Below are positions 20,615 to 56,221 of a stretch of DNA of 64,000 bases, in pieces. The DNA is from Acidobacteriota bacterium. Lineage in GTDB: Bacteria; Acidobacteriota; JAAYUB01. The first letter of the stretch is position 1. The number at the start of each line of letters is the position of its first letter. The translations under genes were made by a program, and so were the position numbers. The notes under the pieces are model-generated. The model did no database searches. It was not told the DNA's origin and was given only the letters and a program-made list of their open reading frames with translations. The DNA is taken from contig JAKQOW010000131.1 of the NCBI GenBank assembly GCA_029565065.1, positions 6,901-70,900 of the forward strand, read 5' to 3'.

Positions 20615-20659
20615 CAGCCCCGCCGTCGCTCCTTAGAATCAGATCGGGTGTTTGAGCGA

Positions 20660-20830
20660 AACCGTTGACCGGTGCCCTCGGGCGAATCGGGAAAGTGGTG
20701 CGAATCCACTGCGGGCCCGCCGCTGTGACCGGGGACGAAGGCCGCACATCGCCACTGTCCGGACGGATTCCGGATGGGAAGGCGCGGCCGGAGGACGATC
20801 CGGAAGCCAGAAGACCGGCCGGTCGATGTT
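20660..20830 (+). promoter_or_regulatory. Cobalamin (AdoCbl) riboswitch
   Basis: The sequence carries the conserved core GGTGCC..GGGAAagtGGTGcgAATCCactGCgGgCCCGCcgCTGTgAcCGG, plus GCCACTG...GGGAAGGC and the B12 box AGCCAGAAGACCGGCC (20805-20820). It is followed by a GC palindrome and a T-run, a possible attenuator. It lies directly upstream of the btuF-like gene. Confidence 0.85.
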
Positions 20831-20972
20831 TTCACTGGACTCCTCGCGGAGACAGGATACAGTGATGCCCCGCTGGCTTTCCATCCTCGCTGGCCGGCCC
20901 GATGCTTTCGGGCCGGCGCTCATTGCCGGTCAAGTCAACCGCCGTTCGGCGGGACTGCCCCTGCCACGTTCC

Positions 20973-39153: not shown

Positions 39154-40827
39154 TCAGGCGCCGTCGCTCTTGCGGCGCCAGGCCTTGTGGATCATCCAGA
39201 AGGTGATGCCGGCGAAGGCGGCCATGAGGATCCGGGCGCCCCAGAGGTACGGCTTGTCTGCCGCCGGCTTGCCGTCCATCAGCAGCTGGCCCACCGCTTC
39301 CTGCCACGTCCAGGTCGCGAGCAGCACCAGGATGTAGAGCGGGGTGATGTACTTGAGGATAAATTTGAAGATCCGCGGAACCCGCAGATCGGCCCCCTGA
39401 TGCATGTCCGCCCAGCTGCGCTCGATGCCGAAAATCCACGAAAAGATGACGATCTCGATGGCGGTGAGCACCACCAGGAAGAACGTGCCGGCCCAGAAGT
39501 CCAGCTCGTCCAAAAAGCCGTGGCGGAAGAACGCCACCACCAGCAGCGTGCTGAGGACGGCAATCCCCATGACCGTGTTGACGGCGCGCGGGCGGCGCCA
39601 GCCGAACTCGTCCTCGAGGAAGGCGACGGCCGGCTGGGCCAGCGCCACCGAGGTGGTGATGCCGGCGATGAAGAGCAGGCCGAACCACATCCCGCCGAAC
39701 AGCTCACCCATCGGGATTTGCTGGAAAATCACCGGCATGGTCTGGAAGCCCAGGTTGTAGGCGCCCTCGCCGGCGATGACCTGCGTCTCGGCCAGGCCGA
39801 AGAACGCCACGGCCACCGGGATGGCGATGGTGCCGCCCAGCACCACTTCGGCGCATTCGTTTGTCGAAGCCGTGCTCAGCCCGTTCAGGGTGACGTCATC
39901 CTGTTCCCGGAGGTACGACGCATACATGTTGATGGTGCCCTGGCCCAGGCTCAGGGTGAAGAAGATCTGTCCGGCGGCGGCCAGCCAGACCGACGCCTGG
40001 CCCAGCCGGCTCAGATCGGGGTTCCAGATGTAGGCCAGTCCCGTGGCAATACTCCAATCGGGCTGGGCCGGGTCGGGCGCGCCCAGGGTGAGCACCCGCA
40101 CCGCCAGGGCGATGCCGAACACGAAGAGCAGCGGCATGCCGATTTTTGCCAGCACCTCGATCCCCTTGGAAATGCCGCGGTAGAGGCAGAAGTAGTTGAT
40201 GGTCAGGGTCAGGGCCAGGAAGCCGAGCGCCGTCAGGATGGACGGGAAATCGGCGCTGGCCTCCACACCCTGGAAGCCGCGGAGGAACTCCCCCATGGCC
40301 GCGCGGTCGGTTTTGCCGGCGTAGCGGCCGGTCAGGGAGAACCAGGAGAACGCCATGCACCACGACTCGACGAACACGTAGTAGACCAGGATGGTGAACG
40401 GGGTCATGATCCCCAGAAAGCCGAGGTACTTGGCGGCCGGGTGCTTCCACATCGCGGCGAACATGCCGGGCGTGGTGCCGTGGCCGCGGACGCCGCCGTG
40501 GCGGCCGATGGTCCATTCCACCCACATCATCGGGATGCCCAGCAGCAGCAGGGCCAGAAAGTAGGGGATCATGAAGGCGCCGCCGCCGTTGTCAGCGGCC
40601 TGAACAGGAAAGCGCAGGAAATTGCCCAGGCCGATGGCGTTGCCCGCCATGGCCAGGATCAGTCCCACCCGGCTGGCCCACCGGTCACGGCCGGATTCGT
40701 CACCGGCGGCGAGCCCGCGCTTGCCCCCGAACAGGACGCGGGCGAAGCAGTACACCACCAGCGCGATGATCGCTCCCCACCCCAGGGTCAGGAACACCCA
40801 CCCGGCCGTGGTCAGTCCTTGGGCCAT
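39154..40827 (-). CDS. Neurotransmitter:sodium symporter (NSS/SNF, LeuT-like) family amino-acid transporter
   Basis: The N-terminus RVGLILAMAGNAIGLGNFLRFPVQAADNGGGAFMIPYFLALLLLGIPMMWVEWTIGRHGG matches LeuT TM1-TM2 nearly residue-for-residue. It has 12 TM helices. Confidence 0.9.
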   Translation of the reverse strand: MAQGLTTAGWVFLTLGWGAIIALVVYCFARVLFGGKRGLAAGDESGRDRWASRVGLILAMAGNAIGLGNFLRFPVQAADNGGGAFMIPYFLALLLLGIPMMWVEWTIGRHGGVRGHGTTPGMFAAMWKHPAAKYLGFLGIMTPFTILVYYVFVESWCMAFSWFSLTGRYAGKTDRAAMGEFLRGFQGVEASADFPSILTALGFLALTLTINYFCLYRGISKGIEVLAKIGMPLLFVFGIALAVRVLTLGAPDPAQPDWSIATGLAYIWNPDLSRLGQASVWLAAAGQIFFTLSLGQGTINMYASYLREQDDVTLNGLSTASTNECAEVVLGGTIAIPVAVAFFGLAETQVIAGEGAYNLGFQTMPVIFQQIPMGELFGGMWFGLLFIAGITTSVALAQPAVAFLEDEFGWRRPRAVNTVMGIAVLSTLLVVAFFRHGFLDELDFWAGTFFLVVLTAIEIVIFSWIFGIERSWADMHQGADLRVPRIFKFILKYITPLYILVLLATWTWQEAVGQLLMDGKPAADKPYLWGARILMAAFAGITFWMIHKAWRRKSDGA

Positions 40828-43930: not shown

Positions 43931-45637
43931 GTGCATCACCCGGAGGCCAAACCCCAAGGAGGTGCGACCGTGCGCATGTCGGAAATGTTGGCCCGGCCGG
44001 CCAAGGAGGCGCCCAAGGGAGCCACCCTGGCGTCGCACCGTCTGCTGGTCCAAGGCGGCTTTGTGCGCGAGACGGCGCCCGGGCTGTTCGCCGCACTGCC
44101 CCTGGGGCGGCAGGTGGCGGCACGGGCCGAAGCACTTGCCCGGGCGGCCGGGGCGGAACGCGGTCTGGTGGAGCTGGAGCTGCCGGCGTTGCAGGATGCG
44201 TCGGGCTCGGCGCCGGATCACGGGGGCTTCATCCTGAGAGACCGCCGGGGAGCCGAGCTGCGCCTGGGGGGAAATCCCGCGGCAGCCCTGCTCCGGCTCG
44301 CGGCTCGGGAAATCAATTCGTACAAACAGCTCCCCCGCCGCTTCAGCCAGATCGGCGTCCGGTTCCGGGACGGCTACCGCGCCCGGTCCGGCCTGTTTGA
44401 GGCGCGGGAGAGCCGCGAGTTTCGGGCTTGGGGGCTGGCGCTGGAACCGAACCACCTGGACGAGGTGACCCTTGCCTATCGATCCATCGTGGCGGACGTG
44501 GCGGTCGCCGCCGGCGTGGACGGCCGCTGGATCGATGACGGAACGGGGACGGCCGTCTGGGTCGTCAGTCTGGCTGAGGGTCCGGAGCGCATCCTGAGCT
44601 GTCCGGCTTGCGGCTACGCCGCGCGGGCCGAGACTGCCGAATCCCGGCTGTCGCACCCACCGCAGGACGCCGCGTGGCGCCCCATGGAAATGGTCTGCGG
44701 CCCGGGGCTGATCCAGCCGGCGCCGTTGGCCGAGTTTCTGGGCATCCCGGTCTGGCTGACGACCAAATTACTCCTGTTCCTGGCCGACGGCCGGCCGGTG
44801 GCGGTGATGGTGCGGGGCGACTGCGATGTGAGCGAGACGAAGGTCCGGCGCCGTCTGGGGGGCGGCCGGCTGGAATTGGCCCCTCCGGAGACGGTCCAGG
44901 CGCTCACCGGCGCCGAGGTGGGCTACGCCGGCCCCATCGGCCTAGCGGCCGACGTGCAGATCCTGGCGGACGCGCAGACCCGGGATCGTGTCAACTTCGA
45001 GTGCGGCGCCAATCGCACCGACCATCACCTCATCTGCGTCAATTTTGATCGCGACCTGCCCCGGCCGGAATTCGGCGACTATGCCGCCGCGGCGGCCGGG
45101 CACGGGTGCCCGCGCTGCGACGCGGGCCGGCTCGCCGACGGCGTCGCGGCGGTGATCGCCCGGGTGACGGGTTCGGGCGCGGCGCCGGCGGATCCGGACG
45201 GGCCGACGTGCCTGGATCAGGAGGGGAGATCCCGGTCCATCGGATGGGTTCAGCTGTCCCTGGATCTCACCGCGCTTGTCGCCGCCGCCGTGGAGCAACA
45301 TCACACTGCCGCCGGCATCGTCTGGCCCCGCGCTTTGGCACCGGCCGCGGTGCACCTGGTGGCACTCAACCTGGAGGACGTCGAGGTGGCGTATGCCGCG
45401 GCGGCGCTGTACACCGCGCTGCGGGCGGACGGAATCCCGGTGCTGTTCGACGACCGCGACGCCCGCGCCGGCGACAAGTTCGCCGGTGCCGACATGCTCG
45501 GCCTGCCGGTGGTCCTGACCCTGAGCCGGCGCACCCACCAGGCGGGCGAACTGGAGCTGCGGATCCGCGGCGGCGAGCGCGAGACGCTCCCCCGCGAGGA
45601 GGCGCTGGGCCGGCTGCGGATGCACCTCGGCGCCTGA
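43931..45637 (+). CDS. Prolyl-tRNA synthetase-like paralog: intact INS editing and anticodon-binding domains, degenerate class II motifs 1-3
   Basis: It aligns along its full length to bacterial ProRS (...SHRLLVQGGFVRE..., INSYKQLP, FRD..., the INS region MVRGDCDVSETK...GANRTDHHLICVNFDRDL, and a C-terminal ...IVWPRALAPAAVHLVAL...LFDDRDARAGDKFA...). But LGPTHEE becomes LGGNPAA, FRDEvRPRfGvmRsREFlMKDAYSF becomes FRDGYRARSGLFEARESREFRAWGLALE, and GCYGIGVSR is lost. The start may be GTG/ATG about 40 nt downstream, after GGAGG. Confidence 0.75.
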   Translation: MHHPEAKPQGGATVRMSEMLARPAKEAPKGATLASHRLLVQGGFVRETAPGLFAALPLGRQVAARAEALARAAGAERGLVELELPALQDASGSAPDHGGFILRDRRGAELRLGGNPAAALLRLAAREINSYKQLPRRFSQIGVRFRDGYRARSGLFEARESREFRAWGLALEPNHLDEVTLAYRSIVADVAVAAGVDGRWIDDGTGTAVWVVSLAEGPERILSCPACGYAARAETAESRLSHPPQDAAWRPMEMVCGPGLIQPAPLAEFLGIPVWLTTKLLLFLADGRPVAVMVRGDCDVSETKVRRRLGGGRLELAPPETVQALTGAEVGYAGPIGLAADVQILADAQTRDRVNFECGANRTDHHLICVNFDRDLPRPEFGDYAAAAAGHGCPRCDAGRLADGVAAVIARVTGSGAAPADPDGPTCLDQEGRSRSIGWVQLSLDLTALVAAAVEQHHTAAGIVWPRALAPAAVHLVALNLEDVEVAYAAAALYTALRADGIPVLFDDRDARAGDKFAGADMLGLPVVLTLSRRTHQAGELELRIRGGERETLPREEALGRLRMHLGA

Positions 45638-45747: not shown

Positions 45748-46506
45748 ATGCGTGGAAAGTTGATCGTCGTCACCTGCCTGATCGCCGCTCTCACCCTGAC
45801 GCTGGCCGCTGCCGGTTTCTGGGAGAAGAAACCGTATACCCAGTGGTCGGAGAAGGATGCGCGCAAGATGCTGGAGAAGTCACCGTGGTGTTACGAGTTC
45901 AACTGGGGGCGGCAGAGCAATATCGGTTCGGACGTGACCGGACCGTCGATCGGTTCAGTGCCCAGCCCGACCAGCACCCCGGCCGATGACAGCCGGGGCG
46001 TCACCGACGCCGAACGGGAATTCATCACCATCGTGCGGGTCATGCTGTTCTCCTCCCGGCCCATCCGCCAGGCGTACGCCACCCTCATCGCCAAGGGTGA
46101 CAAGGCCCGGCTGGAAAAACTGAAGGATTTCGCCGAACGCGATTTCGGCGACGAGATCGTCATCGCCTGGGTGATCGATTCCAAGCCGAAGGGCGCGACC
46201 TCGGTCTTCGACCTGGACCGCCAGCTCCGCGCCCTGGCGGTGGGCGAATTGGCCAATGATACCTTCATCGCCAGCAGCAGCGGCAAAAAGGTGTACATCA
46301 AGGATTTCATCCCGCCGACGAGCGACGGCACCGGCGCCAAGTTCGTCTTTCCGCGGACGATGCCCGACGGCACGCCGTTCCTCACCGCCGCCGACAAGAG
46401 TTTCCGCTTCCAGACGCGGAAGTTCAAGATGAAGGATGACGCGGTTGCGGTGGACGCCACCTTCAAGGTGGAGGACCTCCAACTGGCCGGTCAGCTCGAG
46501 TATTAA
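45748..46506 (+). CDS. Secreted protein of unknown function, paralog A of a tandem pair
   Basis: It has a GGGAGG RBS and a signal peptide. Conserved blocks YWEKKPYTQWSEKDARKML, TIVRVMLFSSRP, KDFAERDFGDEIVIAWV and GTGAKFVFPR are present. It is about 65-70% identical to the next gene. Confidence 0.7.
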   Translation: MRGKLIVVTCLIAALTLTLAAAGFWEKKPYTQWSEKDARKMLEKSPWCYEFNWGRQSNIGSDVTGPSIGSVPSPTSTPADDSRGVTDAEREFITIVRVMLFSSRPIRQAYATLIAKGDKARLEKLKDFAERDFGDEIVIAWVIDSKPKGATSVFDLDRQLRALAVGELANDTFIASSSGKKVYIKDFIPPTSDGTGAKFVFPRTMPDGTPFLTAADKSFRFQTRKFKMKDDAVAVDATFKVEDLQLAGQLEY

Positions 46507-46731: not shown

Positions 46732-47499
46732 ATGCGCCTGAGACTATTTATGGGGCTGATCGGACTCATCGCTCTGGCCGCCGCAACGCTGTCGGCCGCG
46801 GATTACTGGGAGAAGAAACCGTACGCGAAGTGGTCCGAGAAAGAAGCCCGTAAGATGATCATGCAATCGCCGTGGTGCGTCGAGTTCAGCTGGAGCAGCA
46901 CCGGCTCGAGCGGCGACAGCCTCACCCAGGATGCGACGGCCTATGAGCCGTCTTCGCCGGTGGGAACGGCGACGAGCCGGGGCGCCACCGACACCGTGGG
47001 CAGCGAGCGGGAAATTCTCACCATCGTCCGGGTCATGCTGTTCTCGTCGCGGCCCGTCCGCTCGGCGGTCGCCGTGCTCGCCGCGAAGGGGGATGCCGGC
47101 CGGATCGAGCGGCTGAAGGATTTCGCCGAGCGCGACTTCGGCGACGAGATCGTTGTCGCCTGGGTGCTGGATTCCAAGCCCAAGGGCGCCACGTCGGTCG
47201 CCGACCTGGACCGCCAGCTCCGCGCCCTGGCGGTGGGCGAGCTGGCCAACGAGACCTTCCTGGCCACCAGCAGCGGGAAAAAGGTGTTCCTCAAGGACTA
47301 CATCCCGCCCACGCCGGACGGCACGGGTGCCAAGTTTGTCTTCCCGCGCTTCCTGCCGGACGGCACGCCCCTGATCACCGCCGCGGACAAGACTCTGCGC
47401 TTCCAGACGAAAAAGTTCCAGATGCGCGATGACGACATCTCCGTGGATGCCACGTTCAAACTGGACAAGATGATCTTCAACGGCCAGTTGGACTACTAA
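46732..47499 (+). CDS. Secreted protein of unknown function, paralog B of a tandem pair
   Basis: It has an AAAGGAGG RBS and a signal peptide. The blocks are colinear with paralog A (YWEKKPYAKWSEKEARKMI ... GTGAKFVFPR...). Confidence 0.7.
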   Translation: MRLRLFMGLIGLIALAAATLSAADYWEKKPYAKWSEKEARKMIMQSPWCVEFSWSSTGSSGDSLTQDATAYEPSSPVGTATSRGATDTVGSEREILTIVRVMLFSSRPVRSAVAVLAAKGDAGRIERLKDFAERDFGDEIVVAWVLDSKPKGATSVADLDRQLRALAVGELANETFLATSSGKKVFLKDYIPPTPDGTGAKFVFPRFLPDGTPLITAADKTLRFQTKKFQMRDDDISVDATFKLDKMIFNGQLDY

Positions 47500-49669: not shown

Positions 49670-51916
49670 ATGGCCAAACTCAATCTCAATGGCGTGGAAT
49701 TCTGGAGCGGCAGCACAGTCCATGACACCGTGCGCCAGTTGGCCGGTCTCTGCGAGCAGGTGGTCCATGCGCCCATCCCCATCGCGCCGGGCGGCGACAG
49801 TTTCACGATGCCGTGCGATCCGGCGATGAAACGCCGGGGCATCCTGGGCATTGAGGGAAGATACAAGCCCGATGACGACATCGTGGAAATCGTCATTCTT
49901 CTGGTCGAGGGGCCGGCCCAGGCCCGAAGCGGCGTGTCGGCGGTGTTTCAGAAACTGGCCGCGCTGTCGGATCGGGTGCACTGTCTGGAGCCCGAGATCG
50001 ACAACGACCGCGTCGCACTGCGGATGCTGCTCAGCGTCAAGGCCTCGATGTTGTCGTTGAGTCGGCAGGAGAAGTTCATTGACGAGTTGACGAAGCTGGA
50101 CGACCTGGCCCGCTTGCTCCAGGAGGAGATCCCGTCTGACAAGACGGACCAGGAGCTGGAGGCGGCCTACCGGAAGGTGCGCGAGGTCGTCGAGCCGGTG
50201 CGGCCGCTGGCACAGGGCGAGGCGGATCTGGAACCGGCTCACGTGGCGTGGGCCCGCGAGATTCTGGATTACCTGGGTGGCGCCGCGCCCGTCGCCGTCG
50301 CGGCGCCGTCGCTGGCGCTCACGGATTACGCGCAGGCGTTGCTGGCCCGGGTGGCGATGGGCACGGGGGGAAGTCTCGGGCGGCTGGCGGTGCCTTCCGT
50401 CAACACGCAGGGTCTGGTGGAGTTGGTGCGCCGCGCGCCGGGCTTCGTGGTGGTGCCGGTGGAGAGCATCAGTCTCGGCGCCAGCCGCTACGAACTGGGG
50501 AATGAGGTCCGCGCCCTGCTGGCGACCCTGGTGGCAGGGGGGAGGTCCCCGATCTTTACGGGGACCTATGAGGAGCTCCAGGGGGTGTTCCACGGGGGGC
50601 AGGGCGCGGCCTCGGACCCGTTGATGCCGGTGGTGCGGCACATCCCGAATGTGGCGCTGCCGGCGCTGGCCGAGGTGGCGGTCCAGGTGGCCAGCCGCCC
50701 GCACGGCGGCCTGCCGCCGGCCCGACGGAAGGAGCTGACCCGATGGGTGTTGGCGGCCCTCGACGGGCGGAGCGACTCCCAGCAGCAGCGGATCCTGCCG
50801 CTGGTGGCGCGCAAGGTGGTCACCGATTATTTCGCCGGGCGCTACCTCGGCCCCGATGCAGCCAACGGGTTCGCCGACCGCTCCGCCGCATTGAGTGAGA
50901 CGTTTGCCGGTCTATGCGTCCGCCCGCGGGCGATGCGGACGGCGGAAGTCCAGGCGGCGTGGGTGCGGACGCTTGCGTCGCCGGAGCTGCTGGCCACCTT
51001 CCGCGAACACCTGCTGGCTCAGGACCGGGCGCTCGAGGCGCTCAGCCGGCGGCTGACCATGGAAGTGCTGACGCGGCCGCTGCATCAGCCCCTCCGCTAT
51101 TGCGCCCAGGGAACGCCCGGCACGGGCAAGTCGGAGAGCGCCCAGCTCCTGGCCCAGGTGCTGGACGTGCCGTTCGTGGTCATCGACGCGGCGAGCATGT
51201 CCGACGCCTACACCGTCACCAGCCAGCTGCTGGGGTCCAGCCGGGGGATCGTGAACTCCTACCAACCCGGCCGGCTGGAACAGGTGGCCAAGCACCACCG
51301 TGGCGCCGTGGTGGAGATCTGCGACATCGACCATGCGCCGCCGCCGGTGCAGTCGGCCCTGGCGGCGCTCTGCTTCCAGGTGCTGGAAAACGGCGAGGCG
51401 CAGAGCTCGGCCGGCGGGATGTTCTCCTGCGCCAACCTCATCTTCGCCTTCACGATGAACCTGCCGGGGGGCATGGATGAGGCGGTCCGCCGCGACGGCA
51501 TCGGCTACAACAACGCGCCCACGGCCCGGACGGTGAAGAACAAGATCGTGAACGAGATCAAGGGCATGCTCAGCGGCGCCTTCCTGAGCCGGATCGGCAC
51601 GCCCATCCTGTTCGAACCGCTCGACGGCGATGCGCTGGCGGCGATCGTGGAGCGCGCCGTGGCCGAGGCGGTGCGCGCCGCCGCCGAGCGCCTGGGCCGA
51701 CCGGTACCGGCGGTGGCCGTCGGTGCGGGGGTGGGCCGGGCGGTGCTGGCCACGCTCGAGGCCAGCGTCATCGCCTTCGGCGCCCGCGCCATCCTGGAGC
51801 ACGGCCGCGCCCTGGCGGCGGAAGCGGTGCTCCGCTGGGAAGGCGGGGCCGCCGCGGACCAGCCGGTGCGCGTCGAGGCGCGCGGCACCGGCGAGCTGGA
51901 CATTCTGACCGATTGA
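49670..51916 (+). CDS. Diverged ClpA/ClpB-family AAA+ protein: degenerate D1-like region plus C-terminal AAA_2 (ClpB D2-like) module with atypical Walker B
   Basis: The C-terminus has Walker A GTPGTGKSE. The segment ...LGSSRGIVNSYQPGRLEQVAKHHRGAVVEICDIDHAPPPVQSALAALCFQVLENGEAQSSAGGMFSCANLIFAFTMN is colinear with ClpB D2 (...[68 protein letters not shown]), but DE becomes CD/DI. A central region resembles ClpB D1 without Walker A. Confidence 0.8.
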   Translation: MAKLNLNGVEFWSGSTVHDTVRQLAGLCEQVVHAPIPIAPGGDSFTMPCDPAMKRRGILGIEGRYKPDDDIVEIVILLVEGPAQARSGVSAVFQKLAALSDRVHCLEPEIDNDRVALRMLLSVKASMLSLSRQEKFIDELTKLDDLARLLQEEIPSDKTDQELEAAYRKVREVVEPVRPLAQGEADLEPAHVAWAREILDYLGGAAPVAVAAPSLALTDYAQALLARVAMGTGGSLGRLAVPSVNTQGLVELVRRAPGFVVVPVESISLGASRYELGNEVRALLATLVAGGRSPIFTGTYEELQGVFHGGQGAASDPLMPVVRHIPNVALPALAEVAVQVASRPHGGLPPARRKELTRWVLAALDGRSDSQQQRILPLVARKVVTDYFAGRYLGPDAANGFADRSAALSETFAGLCVRPRAMRTAEVQAAWVRTLASPELLATFREHLLAQDRALEALSRRLTMEVLTRPLHQPLRYCAQGTPGTGKSESAQLLAQVLDVPFVVIDAASMSDAYTVTSQLLGSSRGIVNSYQPGRLEQVAKHHRGAVVEICDIDHAPPPVQSALAALCFQVLENGEAQSSAGGMFSCANLIFAFTMNLPGGMDEAVRRDGIGYNNAPTARTVKNKIVNEIKGMLSGAFLSRIGTPILFEPLDGDALAAIVERAVAEAVRAAAERLGRPVPAVAVGAGVGRAVLATLEASVIAFGARAILEHGRALAAEAVLRWEGGAAADQPVRVEARGTGELDILTD

Positions 51917-51925
51917 GGAGGAATC

Positions 51926-52939
51926 ATGGCTGGCAACGTTTACAGCGTCTGCGATCCGGAGCAGTACCGGAAGGCGGGGCCCACCGATCTGGTGGAGCTG
52001 CTGCCGCCGCCGGGGGGCAATCCGCTGTACCTGCAGAAATGGCTGGTGGAGACTCTCGTGTTCGCCATCGTCCACCATGAATTCGTGCACCTGTCGGGGC
52101 CCACCGGGAGCGCCAAGAGCTCGCTCCTGGAGGCGCTCTACACAGTTCCGGAGAACTTCCGGGGGGTGTGCGACGGCCTGGGTTGCGCGTCGCGGCCCCT
52201 GAAGCTGTTCCCCATCGAGATGGCGACCTTCGAGGCGCCGGGCGAGCTGTACCAGCGCCGGGCGCTGAAAGACGGCACGACCTACGACGAGCCGAGCCGG
52301 CTGGTGGCCGCTCTGGCGGCAGCCGCCCGGTGCGCCGGTTCGGCGTACCCGCTGATCTGGCTGCGCGAGATCGGACGAGTGCACTCGTCCAGCGTCCAGG
52401 GCGGCTTGCTCAATCTGATGACGCGGGCCGAGATCGTGCTGCCGGACGGGACGCACTTTCCGGGGCAGGGCATCGCCTGGGTGGCCGACAGCAACTATCA
52501 GGCCGAGCAGAGCGCCACCCATACCCTGGTCACCCTGGACGACGCGCTGAAGCGGCGGTTCACCATCAATCTGACGCTGGACTACCTCACGGCCGAGCAG
52601 GAGGTCCAGGTGCTGGAGCACATTTTCAACGGCAACGGCGGCGCCCCGGTGCCCGCCGAGCTCATCGTGAAGGTGGTGCAGCTGGGCAACGTCGTCCGGC
52701 GCCACCGCAGCGAGGGGAACCTGCAGACGCTGACGCCGCCCACCATCTACGGCTACATGGCCTTCCTCCGGACGGCCCGGGCGCTGCCGCATCTGAGCTT
52801 GCAGCAGGTGGCGCTGGCCACGCTGCTCGGCAACGCCGGCTCCGAGGACCGCAAGCACGTGGCCGGTGTGTTCAATGAGGTGTTCGGCCTGCAGACCGAG
52901 GAGGAGGAAGACCCGACGATGGTGGGGAACCTGTTCTGA
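51926..52939 (+). CDS. MoxR/CbbQ/NorQ-like AAA+ ATPase (AAA_5) with variant Walker B
   Basis: Walker A is GPTGSAKSS. The sensor/Walker B region LIWLREIGRVHSSSVQGGLLNLMTRAEIVLPDG parallels MoxR's [27 protein letters not shown], but DE is replaced by RE. It is 337 aa. Confidence 0.8.
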   Translation: MAGNVYSVCDPEQYRKAGPTDLVELLPPPGGNPLYLQKWLVETLVFAIVHHEFVHLSGPTGSAKSSLLEALYTVPENFRGVCDGLGCASRPLKLFPIEMATFEAPGELYQRRALKDGTTYDEPSRLVAALAAAARCAGSAYPLIWLREIGRVHSSSVQGGLLNLMTRAEIVLPDGTHFPGQGIAWVADSNYQAEQSATHTLVTLDDALKRRFTINLTLDYLTAEQEVQVLEHIFNGNGGAPVPAELIVKVVQLGNVVRRHRSEGNLQTLTPPTIYGYMAFLRTARALPHLSLQQVALATLLGNAGSEDRKHVAGVFNEVFGLQTEEEEDPTMVGNLF

Positions 52940-52972
52940 TTGTCCGGGAGTGCACGGGATTGGGGAGGATCC

Positions 52973-55093
52973 ATGAAACCGAAACGAAAGACGGCCAGGA
53001 CGGCGACGGAACGGACGGGTTATTCGTTCGCGCTTCGCTCGCGCCGGAACAAGTCCGATTGGGCCGGCATCGGCATCGCTGACGCGTTCAAGCAGAACAT
53101 CGACTACTTCCACCGGTCCCAGGCCCAGCGGCTCTTCTACCGCCAGCTCAAGAAGACGGTCCGCGCGGTGGCCAAGCTGGACGGCACCGAGGCCCCGCAC
53201 CTGTTGCAACCGCGGGTCAAACCGCAGCTCTCGCCCTGCTACTCCAGCTATCCGGCGGGGCTGGCGGTGTACGCGGCCATCGGCCTGACGGCGTTTCTGG
53301 AATTCAAGGCCCGGATCTCGGACAGCCGGTTCCTGTCGTATCTGAACACCCAGCTCGGCGTGCAGATGGCGGACAGCGACGTCCGGGCCGATCCCGAGCT
53401 GGCCGAGCTCACTGCCCACAGCGTGGCCAACTGGATGCACAGCCGGCTGCTCATCGAGGACCTGGCCCGGCGGGCGGCGCTGTCCGCCATCGAGGTGTAC
53501 CGCCTGTTCGCCGCGGCCCAGGAAGACCTCCGTTTTGCCACCGTGGACGACATCATCCGCGCGGTGATCCTCTACGGCGACGTCCTGTGCGAGCCGTGGC
53601 ATCTGAACCTGCATCCGCTGACCGCCCGGATCCTCCGGGATCTCATTGTGGCCAGCGCGCCGTTCTACGAACGCCTGCCCGAGGTGCCGGACCGGGACTT
53701 GCTGGAGATGGGCGCCGCCTGGTCCTGGCGGCTGATGGCCGTTCTGCTGCGCTACCTGCCGCCGCCCGGCCAGCCAGAGGAGAAACAGCCCAAGGAGGCG
53801 CGGAAAGGGCGGAATCGGCTGATGGAACTGCTGGGCGCCTCCATGCCCGCCGACGAAAGCATCCGCGGCGACAGCGAGTTGGCCCCGTTCGACGGTCCCG
53901 TGCCGCCGGTCGTCAACCGGCCGGAGAATCCCCTCGACTGGCTCATGAACCAGTTGTCGGGCGGGACGGGACGCGACCGCATCCGCGACGCCGATAAGCT
54001 GGCGACGGTCGAGGATGGGATCTATAAAACCCTGGAGGAATTTCAAGCGGCGCTGGGCGGCGCGGCGGGCCAGTCCGGCAACTGGGAGGACATGCGGTCC
54101 GATCTGCTGGAGAACTCGCTTCGCGCGATCCCGTTCGCGGCCGGACCCATCGAGGGGAACCCGGCCGACGGGCATGAGGTCAAGGTGTCGATGTACGGCG
54201 ACGAGCGCGCGATGGGGGAGCTGTTCGACCGCCCCGTGGCGCCGTCGGACGACGTGGCGGCATGTCACAGCCTGGTGGAGGATGCGGCGCCCCTGACCGC
54301 AACCCTGCGCCAGAACCTCTATCCGAACATCGAGCAGCGGCCGGAGATCCAGCGCCTGCGCTGCAGCGGCGGGCTGGACGGCGCGCGCCTGCCGCTGGCG
54401 GAGTTTTCCGAGACGGTCTTCCGGCGCTACCGGATCCGCGAGGTGGCCGATCCGCGGGGATCGCCGGTGCTGGTGATCGCCTGCGACGGCTCCGGCTCAC
54501 TCAACGAGAAGCAGATGCGGATGGTCAAGCTGTTGTCGGCTGCCTATCTGCAGTCCACCGCCCGGAGCAGTATCCAGGTGCTCGCCGCCCTCTACCACAG
54601 CGGCGACATCCGGCCGGGCGTTTCGGGGCCGCTGGTCCAGTGGATGTACCATCCGCGCAAGTCCATCGCCCGGAGCCGCCAGGACGCCGTGCGGAGCGTC
54701 GTCACGTTGCCCGACACCGGTACCGGCGTGCAGAGCGATGCGCTGTCCATCGCGTTCATCATGGACGAGGCTCGCCGGATTGCACGCGGCCACATGATCT
54801 ACCTGGTGCTCATCACCGACACCAGCTGGAACCGCAGTTTCAACCGGTCCGAAACCGGCGCCGAGGAGGTTCGCGGCTATTTCGAGGACCTCTATGAACG
54901 CTTCCCGGGCCAGGTGCACACGACTCTGGTGGCGTTGGGCGTGGCGGCGCCGACGGGCTTCGAGGACCTGCTCAACGCGGTCATCGGAGTCACCCACGAG
55001 GAATTGTCCGACAGCGCCGCGGTGGCCGAGAAAGTCGGCGTATACGTCGCCCGCTGCATTCGCGAACGCACCCGGCTCATCGCCCGGGCCTGA
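52973..55093 (+). CDS. Large VWA-domain protein (CbbO/NorD-like partner of the MoxR-type ATPase); N-terminal about 480 aa unassigned
   Basis: The C-terminal VWA domain has the MIDAS motif VLVIACDGSGS and downstream T/D ligand positions. It has a GGAGGA RBS before the ATG at 52973. It lies directly downstream of the AAA_5 ATPase, as in CbbQO/NorQD pairs. Confidence 0.75.
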   Translation: MKPKRKTARTATERTGYSFALRSRRNKSDWAGIGIADAFKQNIDYFHRSQAQRLFYRQLKKTVRAVAKLDGTEAPHLLQPRVKPQLSPCYSSYPAGLAVYAAIGLTAFLEFKARISDSRFLSYLNTQLGVQMADSDVRADPELAELTAHSVANWMHSRLLIEDLARRAALSAIEVYRLFAAAQEDLRFATVDDIIRAVILYGDVLCEPWHLNLHPLTARILRDLIVASAPFYERLPEVPDRDLLEMGAAWSWRLMAVLLRYLPPPGQPEEKQPKEARKGRNRLMELLGASMPADESIRGDSELAPFDGPVPPVVNRPENPLDWLMNQLSGGTGRDRIRDADKLATVEDGIYKTLEEFQAALGGAAGQSGNWEDMRSDLLENSLRAIPFAAGPIEGNPADGHEVKVSMYGDERAMGELFDRPVAPSDDVAACHSLVEDAAPLTATLRQNLYPNIEQRPEIQRLRCSGGLDGARLPLAEFSETVFRRYRIREVADPRGSPVLVIACDGSGSLNEKQMRMVKLLSAAYLQSTARSSIQVLAALYHSGDIRPGVSGPLVQWMYHPRKSIARSRQDAVRSVVTLPDTGTGVQSDALSIAFIMDEARRIARGHMIYLVLITDTSWNRSFNRSETGAEEVRGYFEDLYERFPGQVHTTLVALGVAAPTGFEDLLNAVIGVTHEELSDSAAVAEKVGVYVARCIRERTRLIARA

Positions 55094-55105
55094 CAGGAGG
55101 AAGCC

Positions 55106-56221
55106 ATGGGCAACCGCACCACGACCACCGACACGCTGACGCTGCCGAAACCGGCAGGCGGCTGGTCATCGACGTTCGACTATGGCACCGGCGACTGGTG
55201 GAGCCGCCGGCCGGAGGTGGATCGCCGCAAGGCATTGGCGCCCGTTCTGAATCAGCTCCAGCGGCTGGACGCCCAGCGCCTCCGGCTGGAGCGGGAAGGG
55301 GGGACGGTGAAGGATCTGGCCGTCCTGACCCGCATCCTGAGCGAGCCGCTGCGCGTCGAGGGCCACTACGGCCCCGCGACCTGCTCATTGCGGGATCCGC
55401 GCGCGCTGCGCACGGCGCTGCTGGATGTCGACTACGATCTGCACCACGATGTGCGGCAGCTGCCCGACCTGCTGCCGGTGTACTACGTGAGCCGGACGCG
55501 CCGGGACTACTGGGGCGAGTACAGCCTGGTGGTGGAGGATTTTCACCTGAGCCCCGGCTACCCGCTTCAGGACGAGCGGTTCGTGCGCCTGATGGACGTC
55601 GGCCACGAGGTATACTTTCTGCGGCTGGCGCACCTGCGGGACGCCGCACGGGCCATGCTGGGGGGCGCCGGCTCCGGCGACGGGGCGGTGGACGCCCTGT
55701 TGTACGACCTGGGGCGGCACGTTTTCCAGGCCGCCTGGCATGAGGACCAGCGGCTGGGCATTCTGGTGGCTGATCATTTCCGCCTGACGGCGTTCCGGCA
55801 GGCCATCGAGCTGCTTTACCTGTGCCTGAGCGGCGAGCTGTGCGAACTGCGGCACGCCATCACGCCGGATATGCTGCGGTTTTTCGTCGAGGCCTACGAG
55901 CAGCCCGCGATCCGCCGCTTCCTGGAACGGCTGCACGACCTGGATGGCGCCATGATCACCGATCTGCCCCGGCAGGGCCGGGTGCTCTACAAGCGACTGG
56001 GACACGCGTTCAGCCGGTGCCTCGGCACCGAGGTGCTGTGGGGGTTCGGCCGGCGGATGATCCCGCTCTGGAAGGTGGTCTATGGCAACCTGACCCGGTT
56101 GGAGGCGGTCGGCCGGCAGTTGCGGGCCGATCCGCGGGTGATCACCGCGTGCGGCCGGCTGGAGAAAGAAGCCGAAGCAGTCATTGATGAACTGGCGGGA
56201 GGCGGAACGTCAGCGCGGTGA
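55106..56221 (+). CDS. Hypothetical protein, last gene of the sigma-54 AAA+/VWA operon
   Basis: The 371-aa ORF has an AGGAGG-like RBS (CAGGAGGAAGCC ATG) and coding-like GC3. No family is recognisable. Confidence 0.6.
   Translation: MGNRTTTTDTLTLPKPAGGWSSTFDYGTGDWWSRRPEVDRRKALAPVLNQLQRLDAQRLRLEREGGTVKDLAVLTRILSEPLRVEGHYGPATCSLRDPRALRTALLDVDYDLHHDVRQLPDLLPVYYVSRTRRDYWGEYSLVVEDFHLSPGYPLQDERFVRLMDVGHEVYFLRLAHLRDAARAMLGGAGSGDGAVDALLYDLGRHVFQAAWHEDQRLGILVADHFRLTAFRQAIELLYLCLSGELCELRHAITPDMLRFFVEAYEQPAIRRFLERLHDLDGAMITDLPRQGRVLYKRLGHAFSRCLGTEVLWGFGRRMIPLWKVVYGNLTRLEAVGRQLRADPRVITACGRLEKEAEAVIDELAGGGTSAR

What the first reader, a model, noticed from the sequence alone, without database searches (positions are those of the whole stretch)
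43931..45637. ProRS-like paralog: conserved editing (INS) and anticodon-binding domains but degenerate aminoacylation motifs
By-eye alignment to bacterial ProRS is continuous. Motif 1 LGPTHEE becomes LGGNPAA. Motif 2 FRDEvRPRfGvmRsREFlMKDAYSF becomes FRDGYRARSGLFEARESREFRAWGLALE. Motif 3 GCYGIGVSR is not recognisable. The INS editing domain blocks (MVRGDCDVSETK; GANRTDHHLICVNFDRDL) and the C-terminal anticodon-binding domain are well preserved. This suggests a pseudo-synthetase retaining tRNA(Pro) binding and possibly Ala-tRNA(Pro) deacylation, a full-length analogue of free-standing ProX/YbaK editing factors, or a regulatory tRNA-binding protein.
Basis: partly seen in the sequence, partly recalled or inferred. 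Interest (0 to 1): 0.6.

Follow-up and report, generated by a model that had tools for sequence, protein, structure and literature searches.

The report
Dead prolyl-tRNA synthetase keeping its editing domain
This gene encodes a full-length copy of the enzyme that loads proline onto tRNA; it has lost the residues needed for loading but keeps its proofreading and tRNA-binding parts, and it belongs to a large undescribed family whose other members often sit inside hydroxyproline/proline breakdown gene clusters.

Summary
A 555-aa ORF aligns end to end with bacterial INS-type ProRS. Its real start is GTG 43970 with an AAGGAGG ribosome-binding site, not 43931. It fails both curated ProRS models.

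Of the positions invariant in 49 canonical relatives, it keeps 91% in the INS editing domain and 83% in the anticodon-binding domain. It keeps only 42% and 24% in the two halves of the catalytic core. The motif-2 Glu, the motif-3 GxGxGxxR (including its Arg) and all proline-binding residues are gone.

It is not a pseudogene: dN/dS is 0.2–0.3 (INS 0.10–0.19), and orthologs remain intact down to 48% identity. It is, however, the fastest-evolving of 14 syntenic genes.

Orthologs occur only in a few uncultured Acidobacteriota from anaerobic digesters. The clade belongs to a diverse radiation of degenerate ProRS-like proteins. Of 28 such loci, 15 lie beside Hyp/Pro-catabolic genes, against 0 of 27 canonical loci. 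The query clade itself lacks that linkage.

The best reading is a trans-acting deacylase for mischarged tRNAPro built on a dead synthetase scaffold. Whether a canonical proS exists in the same genome could not be tested.

The parts
43956..43962 (+). Shine-Dalgarno AAGGAGG, 7 nt upstream of the real start codon
   Evidence: Read directly from the sequence.
43970..45637 (+). Coding sequence of the ProRS-like pseudo-synthetase (555 aa plus stop).
   Evidence: Orthologs start at MRMSEML. Full-length alignment to ProRS 2J3L. AF2 model pLDDT 91.7; Foldseek TM 0.90 to 2J3L.
43970..44584 (+). N-terminal part of the class II catalytic core (residues 1-205), degenerate
   Evidence: Keeps only 44 of 106 canonical-invariant positions. 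dN/dS 0.27-0.38. The SYKQLP block and the motif-2 loop arginines are retained.
44264..44284 (+). Motif-1/proline-site remnant LGGNPAA (canonical LGPTHEE)
   Evidence: Alignments: P101G, T102N, H103P, E104A, E105A.
44363..44437 (+). Motif-2 remnant FRDGYRARSGLFEARESREFRAWGL (canonical [25 protein letters not shown])
   Evidence: E135G, R144E and F148S are lost; R133, R137 and R139 are kept.
44585..45139 (+). INS editing domain (residues 206-390), conserved
   Evidence: Pfam tRNA_edit 76.4 bits. Keeps 63 of 69 canonical-invariant positions. Lowest dN/dS of the four regions, 0.10-0.19.
44600..44617 (+). First Cys pair (C211, C214) of a Cys4 motif at the base of INS
   Evidence: Invariant in all 97 aligned sequences. 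Zinc binding is inferred.
44759..44779 (+). INS block TTKLLLF containing the editing-site Lys (K266; counterpart of E. coli K279)
   Evidence: K266 is invariant in 97 sequences. The E. coli correspondence comes from established knowledge.
44909..44935 (+). INS GXXXP loop (GAEVGYAGP, residues 314-322)
   Evidence: G318, Y319, A320 and G321 are invariant; P322 is kept in the query clade.
44993..45058 (+). INS block NFECGANRTDHHLICVNFDRDL with H353 (counterpart of E. coli H369)
   Evidence: N342 to N348 (apart from C345, nearly invariant) and H353 are invariant in 97 sequences.
45107..45133 (+). Second Cys pair (C380, C383) of the Cys4 motif
   Evidence: Invariant in all 97 aligned sequences.
45140..45304 (+). 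C-terminal part of the catalytic core (residues 391-445), the most degenerate region. Contains the proline-site remnant AAVIARVTGSGAAPA (45146-45190) and the motif-3 remnant WVQLSLDLTALVAAAVEQ (45245-45298).
   Evidence: Keeps 7 of 29 canonical-invariant positions. E395V, H398R, G430S, G432D, R435A.
45305..45634 (+). Class IIa anticodon-binding domain (residues 446-555), conserved
   Evidence: Pfam HGTP_anticodon 44 bits. Keeps 29 of 35 canonical-invariant positions.

Best explanation
The gene encodes a pseudo-synthetase. The protein has the complete bacterial ProRS architecture but can no longer form prolyl-adenylate or charge tRNA. It keeps an intact INS editing site, the anticodon-binding domain, and the motif-2 loop arginines that in E. 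coli ProRS contact the acceptor stem.

The most likely mechanism is as follows. The dead class II scaffold and the anticodon-binding domain dock tRNAPro. The aminoacylated CCA end is delivered to the INS pocket (K266, the G318-P322 loop, H353), and the mischarged amino acid is hydrolysed. Because the INS pocket looks canonical, the default substrate is Ala-tRNAPro. The protein would therefore act in trans on tRNAPro charged by a separate, genuine ProRS.

What is shown:
- the loss of the catalytic residues;
- the retention of the INS and anticodon-domain residues;
- the predicted fold;
- purifying selection.

What is inferred:
- tRNAPro binding;
- deacylase activity and its substrate;
- the existence of a separate ProRS in the genome.
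For: - Architecture: end-to-end alignment to ProRS. The AF2 model (pLDDT 91.7, pTM 0.90) superposes on 2J3L with TM 0.90 and rmsd 2.9 A.
- Loss of synthetic function: tRNA-synt_2b scores 13.3 bits against a 29.3 cut-off. The proS equivalogs score 297.7/558 and 232.8/306.7. Only 42% and 24% of canonical-invariant positions survive in the two halves of the core. The motif-2 Glu, the motif-3 Arg and glycines, PTHEE and E.GH are all replaced.
- No new pocket: the replaced pocket residues differ between subclades (GNPAA, GPQDG, APEGF, PPDDS), which argues against a conserved new ligand site.
- Retained editing and tRNA parts: 91% (INS) and 83% (anticodon domain) of canonical-invariant positions are kept. 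The INS Lys, the GXXXP loop, the Asp and the His are invariant in 97 family members. R133, R137 and R139 of the motif-2 loop are kept.
- Selection: dN/dS is 0.20-0.31 overall. INS is the most constrained region at 0.10-0.19, and the core is at 0.27-0.50. The ORF is intact in orthologs down to 48% identity, in at least 10 clusters.
- Precedent: NCBI itself names clade members 'YbaK/EbsC family protein'. Free-standing INS homologs that edit tRNAPro in trans are well established (PMC3973320, abstract).
Against: - No assay exists, and I could not show that a canonical proS is present in the same genome.
- If the host's real ProRS is the INS-containing type, as in the Desulfobacterota relatives, a second Ala-tRNAPro editing activity looks redundant.
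- The gene is the fastest-evolving of 14 syntenic genes (omega 0.31 against 0.02-0.24), which would be unusual for a fidelity factor under strong demand.
- Local context in the query clade (DUF1028, DUF2148, two secreted proteins of unknown family) gives no support.
- The AF2 model was built from an alignment that includes real ProRS sequences, so the fold match is partly built in.
Confidence: 0.5

Rival explanations
1. A proofreading factor for proline analogues. The physiological substrate would be tRNAPro mischarged with hydroxyproline (or another proline analogue), and the family evolved as a guardian that is co-expressed with Hyp/Pro catabolism. On this reading the Acidobacteriota clade is a stand-alone descendant of such a guardian.
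For: - After 90% de-duplication, 15 of 28 degenerate loci carry HypD, a HypD-like GRE, activases, proline-racemase-family, OCD/P2C-reductase-family, ProDH or AcnX-like genes in their flanks. None of 27 canonical loci do (Fisher p 4.6e-6).
- In L023 the ProRS-like gene lies in a same-strand run between HypD (1235.6 bits, cut-off 1100) with a P2C-reductase-family gene on one side and a Hyp-epimerase/proline-racemase-family gene on the other.
- In L014 it directly precedes the HypD activase and HypD (1199.5 bits).
- P0078, the most frequent sister of the query clade, ends a DHDPS-family/SDR/ProDH/AKR gene run.
- Hydroxyproline can be misincorporated at proline codons (PMC7595273, title and abstract).
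Against: - The query clade has no Hyp/Pro genes in the 64-kb window or in the flanks of its orthologs.
- Its INS pocket is canonical-like, and canonical INS excludes proline-sized substrates (established knowledge).
- The neighbour families used in the test were chosen after seeing them, and the loci are not phylogenetically independent, so the p-value is optimistic.
- The grouping with L023 has only 43-76% bootstrap support.
Confidence: 0.2
2. A non-enzymatic tRNAPro-binding or ProRS-binding protein. It would act as a regulator, sensor or heterodimer partner of the true ProRS, by analogy with HisZ, and INS would be conserved for structural or binding reasons only.
For: The scaffold, the dimer-interface region, the SYKQLP block and the anticodon-binding domain are retained. 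aaRS-like proteins with non-translational roles are a known class (PMC9437257).
Against: The INS residues that are invariant are exactly the catalytic and pocket residues, and INS has the lowest dN/dS of the four regions. No regulatory partner is conserved next to the gene across the clade.
Confidence: 0.15
3. Still an active ligase with an unorthodox active site, either charging tRNAPro or adenylating another substrate. It could even be the only ProRS of the organism.
For: The motif-2 Arg (R133) and the strand that follows it (A145, R146, E147) are kept. Presence of another ProRS was not demonstrated. Some sister classes keep both the motif-2 and motif-3 arginines and may well be active on something.
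Against: The motif-3 Arg and both glycines, the motif-2 Glu and every proline-contacting residue are replaced, and the replacements vary within the clade. The gene evolves faster than all 13 neighbours, which is not expected of a sole essential synthetase.
Confidence: 0.07
4. A relic of a displaced proS in slow decay with no remaining function.
For: Constraint is relaxed relative to neighbours, and the catalytic core is heavily degenerate.
Against: dN/dS is well below 1 in every domain. ORFs are intact across lineages as far apart as 48% identity. The Shine-Dalgarno sequence is perfect. INS constraint is comparable to that of neighbouring genes.
Confidence: 0.03

Closest known systems
Bacterial INS-containing prolyl-tRNA synthetase (ProS type 1; e.g. 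E. faecalis ProRS, PDB 2J3L)
   Same: Same domain order: class II core split by INS, then a C-terminal anticodon-binding domain. Same length. The predicted fold matches with TM 0.90. The INS and anticodon-domain signature residues are shared.
   Different: It fails both curated ProRS models. It lacks the motif-2 Glu, the motif-3 GxGxGxxR and all proline-binding residues. It evolves faster than its neighbouring genes.
Free-standing INS-superfamily trans-editing factors (ProXp-ala, YbaK, ProXp-x/y/ST)
   Same: Same editing fold (PF04073) with the conserved Lys. The proposed job is the same: clearing mischarged tRNAPro in trans. NCBI names clade members 'YbaK/EbsC family protein'.
   Different: Those factors are single domains of about 160 aa. 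They rely on acceptor-stem contacts or on a complex with ProRS. Here the editing domain remains embedded in a full 555-aa synthetase scaffold with its own anticodon-binding domain.
HisZ (HisRS-like regulatory subunit of ATP phosphoribosyltransferase) and other aaRS-like pseudo-enzymes
   Same: A class II synthetase paralog that has lost aminoacylation while keeping the fold under selection.
   Different: HisZ lacks the anticodon-binding domain and works with HisG in a metabolic enzyme. Here the tRNA-binding and editing modules are the conserved parts, and no partner enzyme is evident.
ProRSx of Streptomyces (with tRNAProA) and the P-type plus E-type ProRS pair of Bacillus thuringiensis
   Same: Documented cases of a second ProRS gene in one bacterial genome (PMC9437257; PMC11229370).
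   Different: Both are active synthetases with intact motifs, and ProRSx is paired with a dedicated tRNA gene. Here the motifs are degenerate, and no tRNA gene lies in the window or in 29 related loci, except for one ordinary tRNA-Pro(CGG) near a canonical locus.

Membership tests
Prolyl-tRNA synthetase, bacterial type 1 (NCBIfam NF006625 / TIGR00409) | Score at or above the curated equivalog cut-off | tested here: not met
   297.7 bits against 558, and 232.8 bits against 306.7.
Prolyl-tRNA synthetase, bacterial type 1 (NCBIfam NF006625 / TIGR00409) | Domain architecture: class II core, INS insertion, HGTP anticodon-binding domain | tested here: met
   Full-length alignment to 2J3L. Foldseek TM 0.90. 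Pfam tRNA_edit and HGTP_anticodon hits.
Prolyl-tRNA synthetase, bacterial type 1 (NCBIfam NF006625 / TIGR00409) | Class II ATP-binding motifs: motif 2 fRxE and motif 3 GxGxGxxR | tested here: not met
   The motif-2 Arg is kept, but E135 is Gly. Motif 3 reads SLDLTA (G430S, G432D, R435A). Pfam tRNA-synt_2b scores 13.3 bits against a 29.3 cut-off.
Prolyl-tRNA synthetase, bacterial type 1 (NCBIfam NF006625 / TIGR00409) | Proline-binding residues (PTHEE block; E.GH block) | tested here: not met
   The blocks read GNPAA and V.AR in the query, and they vary among clade members.
Prolyl-tRNA synthetase, bacterial type 1 (NCBIfam NF006625 / TIGR00409) | Pro-AMP formation and tRNAPro aminoacylation | not testable with these tools
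   Needs ATP-PPi exchange and aminoacylation assays.
INS/YbaK aminoacyl-tRNA editing domain superfamily (PF04073) | Pfam score above the gathering threshold | tested here: met
   76.4 bits against 25.5, residues 266-373 of the 568-aa form.
INS/YbaK aminoacyl-tRNA editing domain superfamily (PF04073) | Conserved editing-site Lys, GXXXP loop, and Asp/His of ProRS INS (E. coli K279, G331-P335, D350, H369; numbering from established knowledge) | tested here: met
   K266, G318-P322, D334 and H353 are present, and they are invariant or nearly so in 97 family members.
INS/YbaK aminoacyl-tRNA editing domain superfamily (PF04073) | Free-standing single-domain architecture (as in ProXp-ala and YbaK) | tested here: not met
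   The domain is embedded in a 555-aa ProRS scaffold. The YbaK equivalogs score 19.3/153 and 12.5/243.
INS/YbaK aminoacyl-tRNA editing domain superfamily (PF04073) | Hydrolysis of a mischarged aminoacyl-tRNA | not testable with these tools
   Needs deacylation assays with Ala-, Cys-, Hyp- and Pro-tRNAPro.
ProRSx / tRNAProA mistranslation pair | Intact catalytic motifs and an adjacent dedicated tRNA gene | tested here: not met
   The motifs are degenerate. No tRNA gene in the window or in the orthologous loci.
Paralog status (a second, canonical proS in the same genome) | A canonical ProRS gene elsewhere in the genome | not testable with these tools
   None in the 64-kb window or in the flanks of 33 loci. 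The whole 5.0-Mb contig cannot be read here.

The most novel reading that the evidence does not exclude
The gene is a member of a large, undescribed radiation of ProRS-derived pseudo-synthetases. These would form a new architectural class of tRNAPro proofreading factor that evolved together with anaerobic hydroxyproline/proline catabolism (HypD and HypD-like glycyl-radical enzyme operons, ProDH clusters). Their role would be to protect translation from proline analogues or from proline-pool swings while those substrates are being burned. On this reading the Acidobacteriota clade is a stand-alone derivative of that system.
Probability: 0.3. Interest if true: 0.8.

Novelty: new variant of a known kind. 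Interest (0 to 1): 0.62.

Why it matters
The INS/YbaK superfamily of trans-editing factors has been catalogued as small free-standing domains. A full-length, catalytically dead ProRS that keeps only its editing and tRNA-recognition modules would be a new architecture for quality control of proline codons. It would also be a clear example of how a synthetase can be repurposed by losing its main activity.

The family is diverse. Among the 140 full-length 50%-identity representatives closest to the query profile, 59 have none of the four catalytic motifs intact. Public databases mostly label these proteins 'proline--tRNA ligase', 'YbaK/EbsC family' or 'hypothetical', so genome-scale aaRS counts and metabolic reconstructions are being misled.

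The recurrent embedding of sister classes in HypD operons makes a concrete question testable: do bacteria that grow on hydroxyproline need a dedicated mechanism to keep it, or the resulting proline imbalance, out of their proteins?

Tried and rejected
- Canonical proS in the same genome. There is none in the window (tblastn) or in the flanks of 33 loci. The single genome-contig scan went on finding orthologs. I considered recognising a canonical ProRS from the 5,003,342-bp contig by its 'longest_contig' value in another protein search. I judged this very unlikely to work, because only the best 120 hits are listed and no closely related canonical query was available, so I did not spend the search.
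- Same-metagenome pair. L054 (canonical) and L084 (degenerate) come from one metagenome, but tetranucleotide correlation is 0.48 (same-genome control 0.99) and GC differs by 6 points. They are different genomes, so this gives no co-occurrence evidence.
- ProRSx-like pairing with a special tRNA. No tRNA genes were found. Rfam finds only a distant cobalamin riboswitch.
- Promoter and terminator scan around the gene: nothing.
- Hyp/Pro catabolic genes in the window or in query-clade loci: none by tblastn. The contexts of P0008, P0009 and P0010 are uninformative apart from alpha/beta-hydrolase or peptidase genes nearby.
- PADLOC and NCBIfam on the immediate neighbours: no useful hit.
- Pseudogene reading: rejected by dN/dS and conservation.
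- Long-branch attraction as the cause of the clade grouping: the tree was rebuilt on INS and anticodon-domain columns only. Clade B holds at 75% bootstrap, while the link to L023 is weak at 43%.
- GRE type 2 as HplG: rejected. HplG scores 353.8 bits against 653.5 for HypD and 630.6 for glycerol dehydratase, so its specificity is unknown.
- Literature: seven searches found no description of a dead full-length ProRS paralog or of a link between ProRS and HypD.
Full report
OBSERVATION. The real start is almost certainly the GTG at 43970. All orthologs begin MRMSEML, and AAGGAGG lies 7 nt upstream. The product is therefore 555 aa.

HMMER aligns the protein end to end with E. faecalis ProRS 2J3L (E 1.4e-68). 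Pfam sees the editing domain (tRNA_edit, 76.4 bits) and the anticodon-binding domain (44 bits). The class II core scores only 13.3 bits, below its 29.3 cut-off. Both NCBIfam proS equivalogs are missed by a wide margin: 297.7 against 558, and 232.8 against 306.7.

RESIDUE MAPPING. I aligned the protein with 120 database relatives and 33 genomic loci and defined 49 canonical relatives as those with PTHEE, xRDE, E.GH and GxGxxR all intact. At positions that are at least 95% invariant in that set, the query keeps:
- 63 of 69 in INS (91%);
- 29 of 35 in the anticodon-binding domain (83%);
- 44 of 106 in the N-terminal half of the core (42%);
- 7 of 29 in the C-terminal half of the core (24%).

The specific losses are:
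- PTHEE becomes GNPAA (residues 101-105).
- The motif-2 Glu becomes G135.
- E.GH becomes V395 and R398.
- Motif 3 becomes SLDLTA (G430S, G432D, R435A).

Kept are the motif-2 Arg (R133), the motif-2 loop arginines R137 and R139 (which in E. coli ProRS contact the acceptor stem, from established knowledge), the SYKQLP block, and a Cys4 motif at the base of INS. The INS Lys (K266), the GXXXP loop (318-322), D334 and H353 are invariant in all 97 sequences of alignment A2.

The residues that replace the former pocket differ between subclades (GNPAA, GPQDG, APEGF, PPDDS). There is therefore no sign of a conserved new ligand site.

An AlphaFold2 model is confident (pLDDT 91.7, pTM 0.90). It superposes on 2J3L with TM 0.90 and rmsd 2.9 A. 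One caveat applies: the input alignment contains true ProRS sequences.

IS IT A LIVE GENE? Nei-Gojobori dN/dS between the window and three orthologs is 0.20-0.31 overall. By region:
- INS 0.10-0.19;
- N-terminal core 0.27-0.38;
- C-terminal core 0.2-0.5;
- anticodon domain 0.19-0.44.

Intact ORFs persist down to 48% identity. The gene is nevertheless the fastest-evolving of 14 syntenic genes in the same genome pair: omega 0.31 against 0.02-0.24, and 79% amino-acid identity against 87-99%. A housekeeping synthetase would be expected to sit at the other extreme. So this is a maintained gene with relaxed constraint on the core, and the editing domain is its most constrained part.

DISTRIBUTION. 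Orthologs occur in only three GTDB species. All are uncultured Acidobacteriota from sludge digesters, an anaerobic membrane bioreactor and Zodletone spring, and one lies on a 5.0-Mb contig. An exhaustive profile search of 1.84 billion 50%-identity representatives finds the clade as three representatives (895-1015 bits). Scores then fall away gradually from 654 bits.

Of the 140 new full-length representatives closest to the profile, 59 have none of the four catalytic motifs intact, 16 have one, 13 two, 16 three and 36 all four. This sample is biased towards relatives of the query, but it shows that degenerate ProRS-like proteins are a diverse group. In all of them the INS motifs are essentially unchanged.

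NCBI names query-clade members 'YbaK/EbsC family protein' or 'hypothetical protein'. It names other degenerate classes 'proline--tRNA ligase'.

CONTEXT. In the window the gene is divergent from DUF1028 and DUF2148 genes. It is followed by two paralogous secreted proteins of about 255 aa with no family assignment, then a sigma-54 activator. Only the secreted-protein gene stays linked in the 54%-identity relative. There are no tRNA genes, no second ProRS, and no Hyp/Pro catabolic genes in the window.

Sister classes look very different:
- In L014, L016, L017 and L059 the ProRS-like gene directly precedes the HypD activase and trans-4-hydroxy-L-proline dehydratase HypD (1199.5 bits, cut-off 1100). 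An SDR gene and AcnX-like subunits follow.
- In L023 the same-strand order is activase, HypD (1235.6 bits), an OCD/pyrroline-2-carboxylate-reductase-family gene, the ProRS-like gene, a proline-racemase/Hyp-epimerase-family gene, a DMT transporter and an aminotransferase.
- Six other loci carry a GntR regulator, a second HypD-like glycyl-radical enzyme and its activase divergently adjacent. Its closest solved structure is HypD at 653 bits, with glycerol dehydratase at 631 bits, so its specificity is unknown.
- P0078 ends a gene run of DHDPS-family, SDR, proline dehydrogenase and aldo-keto reductase.

After de-duplication at 90% identity, 15 of 28 degenerate loci against 0 of 27 canonical loci carry such genes (Fisher p 4.6e-6). 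Two caveats apply. The gene families were chosen after I had seen them, and the loci are not independent. On the other hand, the linked loci span at least seven motif classes, two GRE types and different gene orders.

PHYLOGENY. Neighbour-joining places the query clade with P0009, P0010, P0026 and P0078. Bootstrap support for this clade is 99% on all columns and 75% on the INS plus anticodon-domain columns alone. P0078 is the most frequent sister. The further link to L023 has 43-76% support.

INTERPRETATION. The data show a ProRS that has lost the chemistry of aminoacylation and has preserved the parts that recognise tRNAPro and hydrolyse mischarged tRNAPro. The most economical mechanism is a trans-acting deacylase built on a dead synthetase scaffold. 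Because the INS pocket is canonical-like, the default substrate is Ala-tRNAPro. I put this at about 0.5.

The family-level link to Hyp/Pro catabolism suggests a more specific setting: protecting proline codons while a proline analogue is abundant or the proline pool is disturbed. Hydroxyproline can be misincorporated at proline codons (PMC7595273). For this clade, though, the link is only by ancestry.

The rivals are a non-enzymatic tRNA- or ProRS-binding regulator, a still-active unorthodox ligase, and a decaying relic.

It is the first thing to do.

COMPARISON WITH THE LITERATURE. The 2022 review of aaRS duplications lists only ProRSx as a ProRS paralog (PMC9437257). B. thuringiensis carries active P-type and E-type enzymes (PMC11229370). 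The catalogued INS-superfamily trans-editing factors are single domains (PMC3973320). The HypD papers report proC as the co-localised gene and do not mention any tRNA ligase (PMC6219649). No searched paper joins HypD to ProRS. I therefore rate this a new variant of a known kind.

Noticed in passing
L014 3781-13236 (likewise L016, L017, L059, L012/L052): A degenerate ProRS-like class (LGQSYTN; motif-2 and motif-3 arginines kept) lies directly upstream of the HypD activase, HypD (1199.5 bits against a 1100 cut-off), an SDR gene, AcnX-like large and small subunits, and an IlvD-like dehydratase. NCBI names this class 'proline--tRNA ligase'.
   Followed up: yes
L023 5664-14682: A same-strand gene run in a Desulfohalobiaceae MAG: GRE activase, HypD (1235.6 bits), an OCD/pyrroline-2-carboxylate-reductase-family gene, a ProRS-like gene lacking the motif-3 Arg, a proline-racemase/Hyp-epimerase-family gene, a DMT transporter and an aminotransferase.
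   Followed up: yes
L022 462-3633; L044 4123-8514; L045 3789-8086; also L061, L066, L072: A second glycyl-radical enzyme of about 800 aa, with a GntR/FCD regulator and an activase, lies divergently next to further degenerate ProRS-like classes. In those classes the INS GXXXP loop reads GYAGG. The enzyme is below the HypD equivalog cut-off (764 bits against 1100), and its substrate is unknown.
   Followed up: partly
window 44600-44617 and 45107-45133: Four cysteines (C211, C214, C380, C383) at the two junctions of the INS domain are invariant in all 97 aligned canonical and degenerate sequences. This is probably a structural zinc site specific to this ProRS subfamily.
   Followed up: no
window 45748-46506 and 46732-47499: Two tandem paralogous genes for secreted proteins of about 255 aa with no Pfam, NCBIfam or PADLOC match. 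A copy stays next to the ProRS-like gene even in the 54%-identity relative (L010, L112).
   Followed up: partly
window 49670-56221: A conserved four-gene same-strand cluster of 748, 337, about 706 and 371 aa. Its only matches are weak AAA_2/AAA_5 hits and faint PADLOC hits (DolB 23.9 bits, PDC-M37B 23.1 bits). Function unknown.
   Followed up: partly
window 20653-20837: A cobalamin riboswitch (RF00174, 120 bits, + strand). It is far from the finding and unrelated to it.
   Followed up: no
L030 10001-11671; L091; L096: Another partly degenerate ProRS-like class (PQHEE / FRED / RLGH / GIDMMR), in at least one case from an uncultured Acidobacteriota genome. It is unlinked to Hyp/Pro genes in the available flanks.
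   Followed up: no
L011 9124-11668 and L028 2140-9113: The mildly altered 'PAHEE / K.GH / SIDINR' class is annotated 'proline--tRNA ligase' in the Desulfobacterales bin60 chromosome CP070694.1. It sits beside an OCD/P2C-reductase-family gene (L011) or a proline-racemase-family gene (L028). It may be a specialised enzyme and not the housekeeping ProRS.
   Followed up: partly
window 39154-40827: An SNF-family (sodium:neurotransmitter symporter) transporter gene lies 3 kb upstream on the opposite strand and is syntenic in the close orthologs. Members of this family carry amino acids, but I found no evidence linking it to the ProRS-like gene.
   Followed up: no
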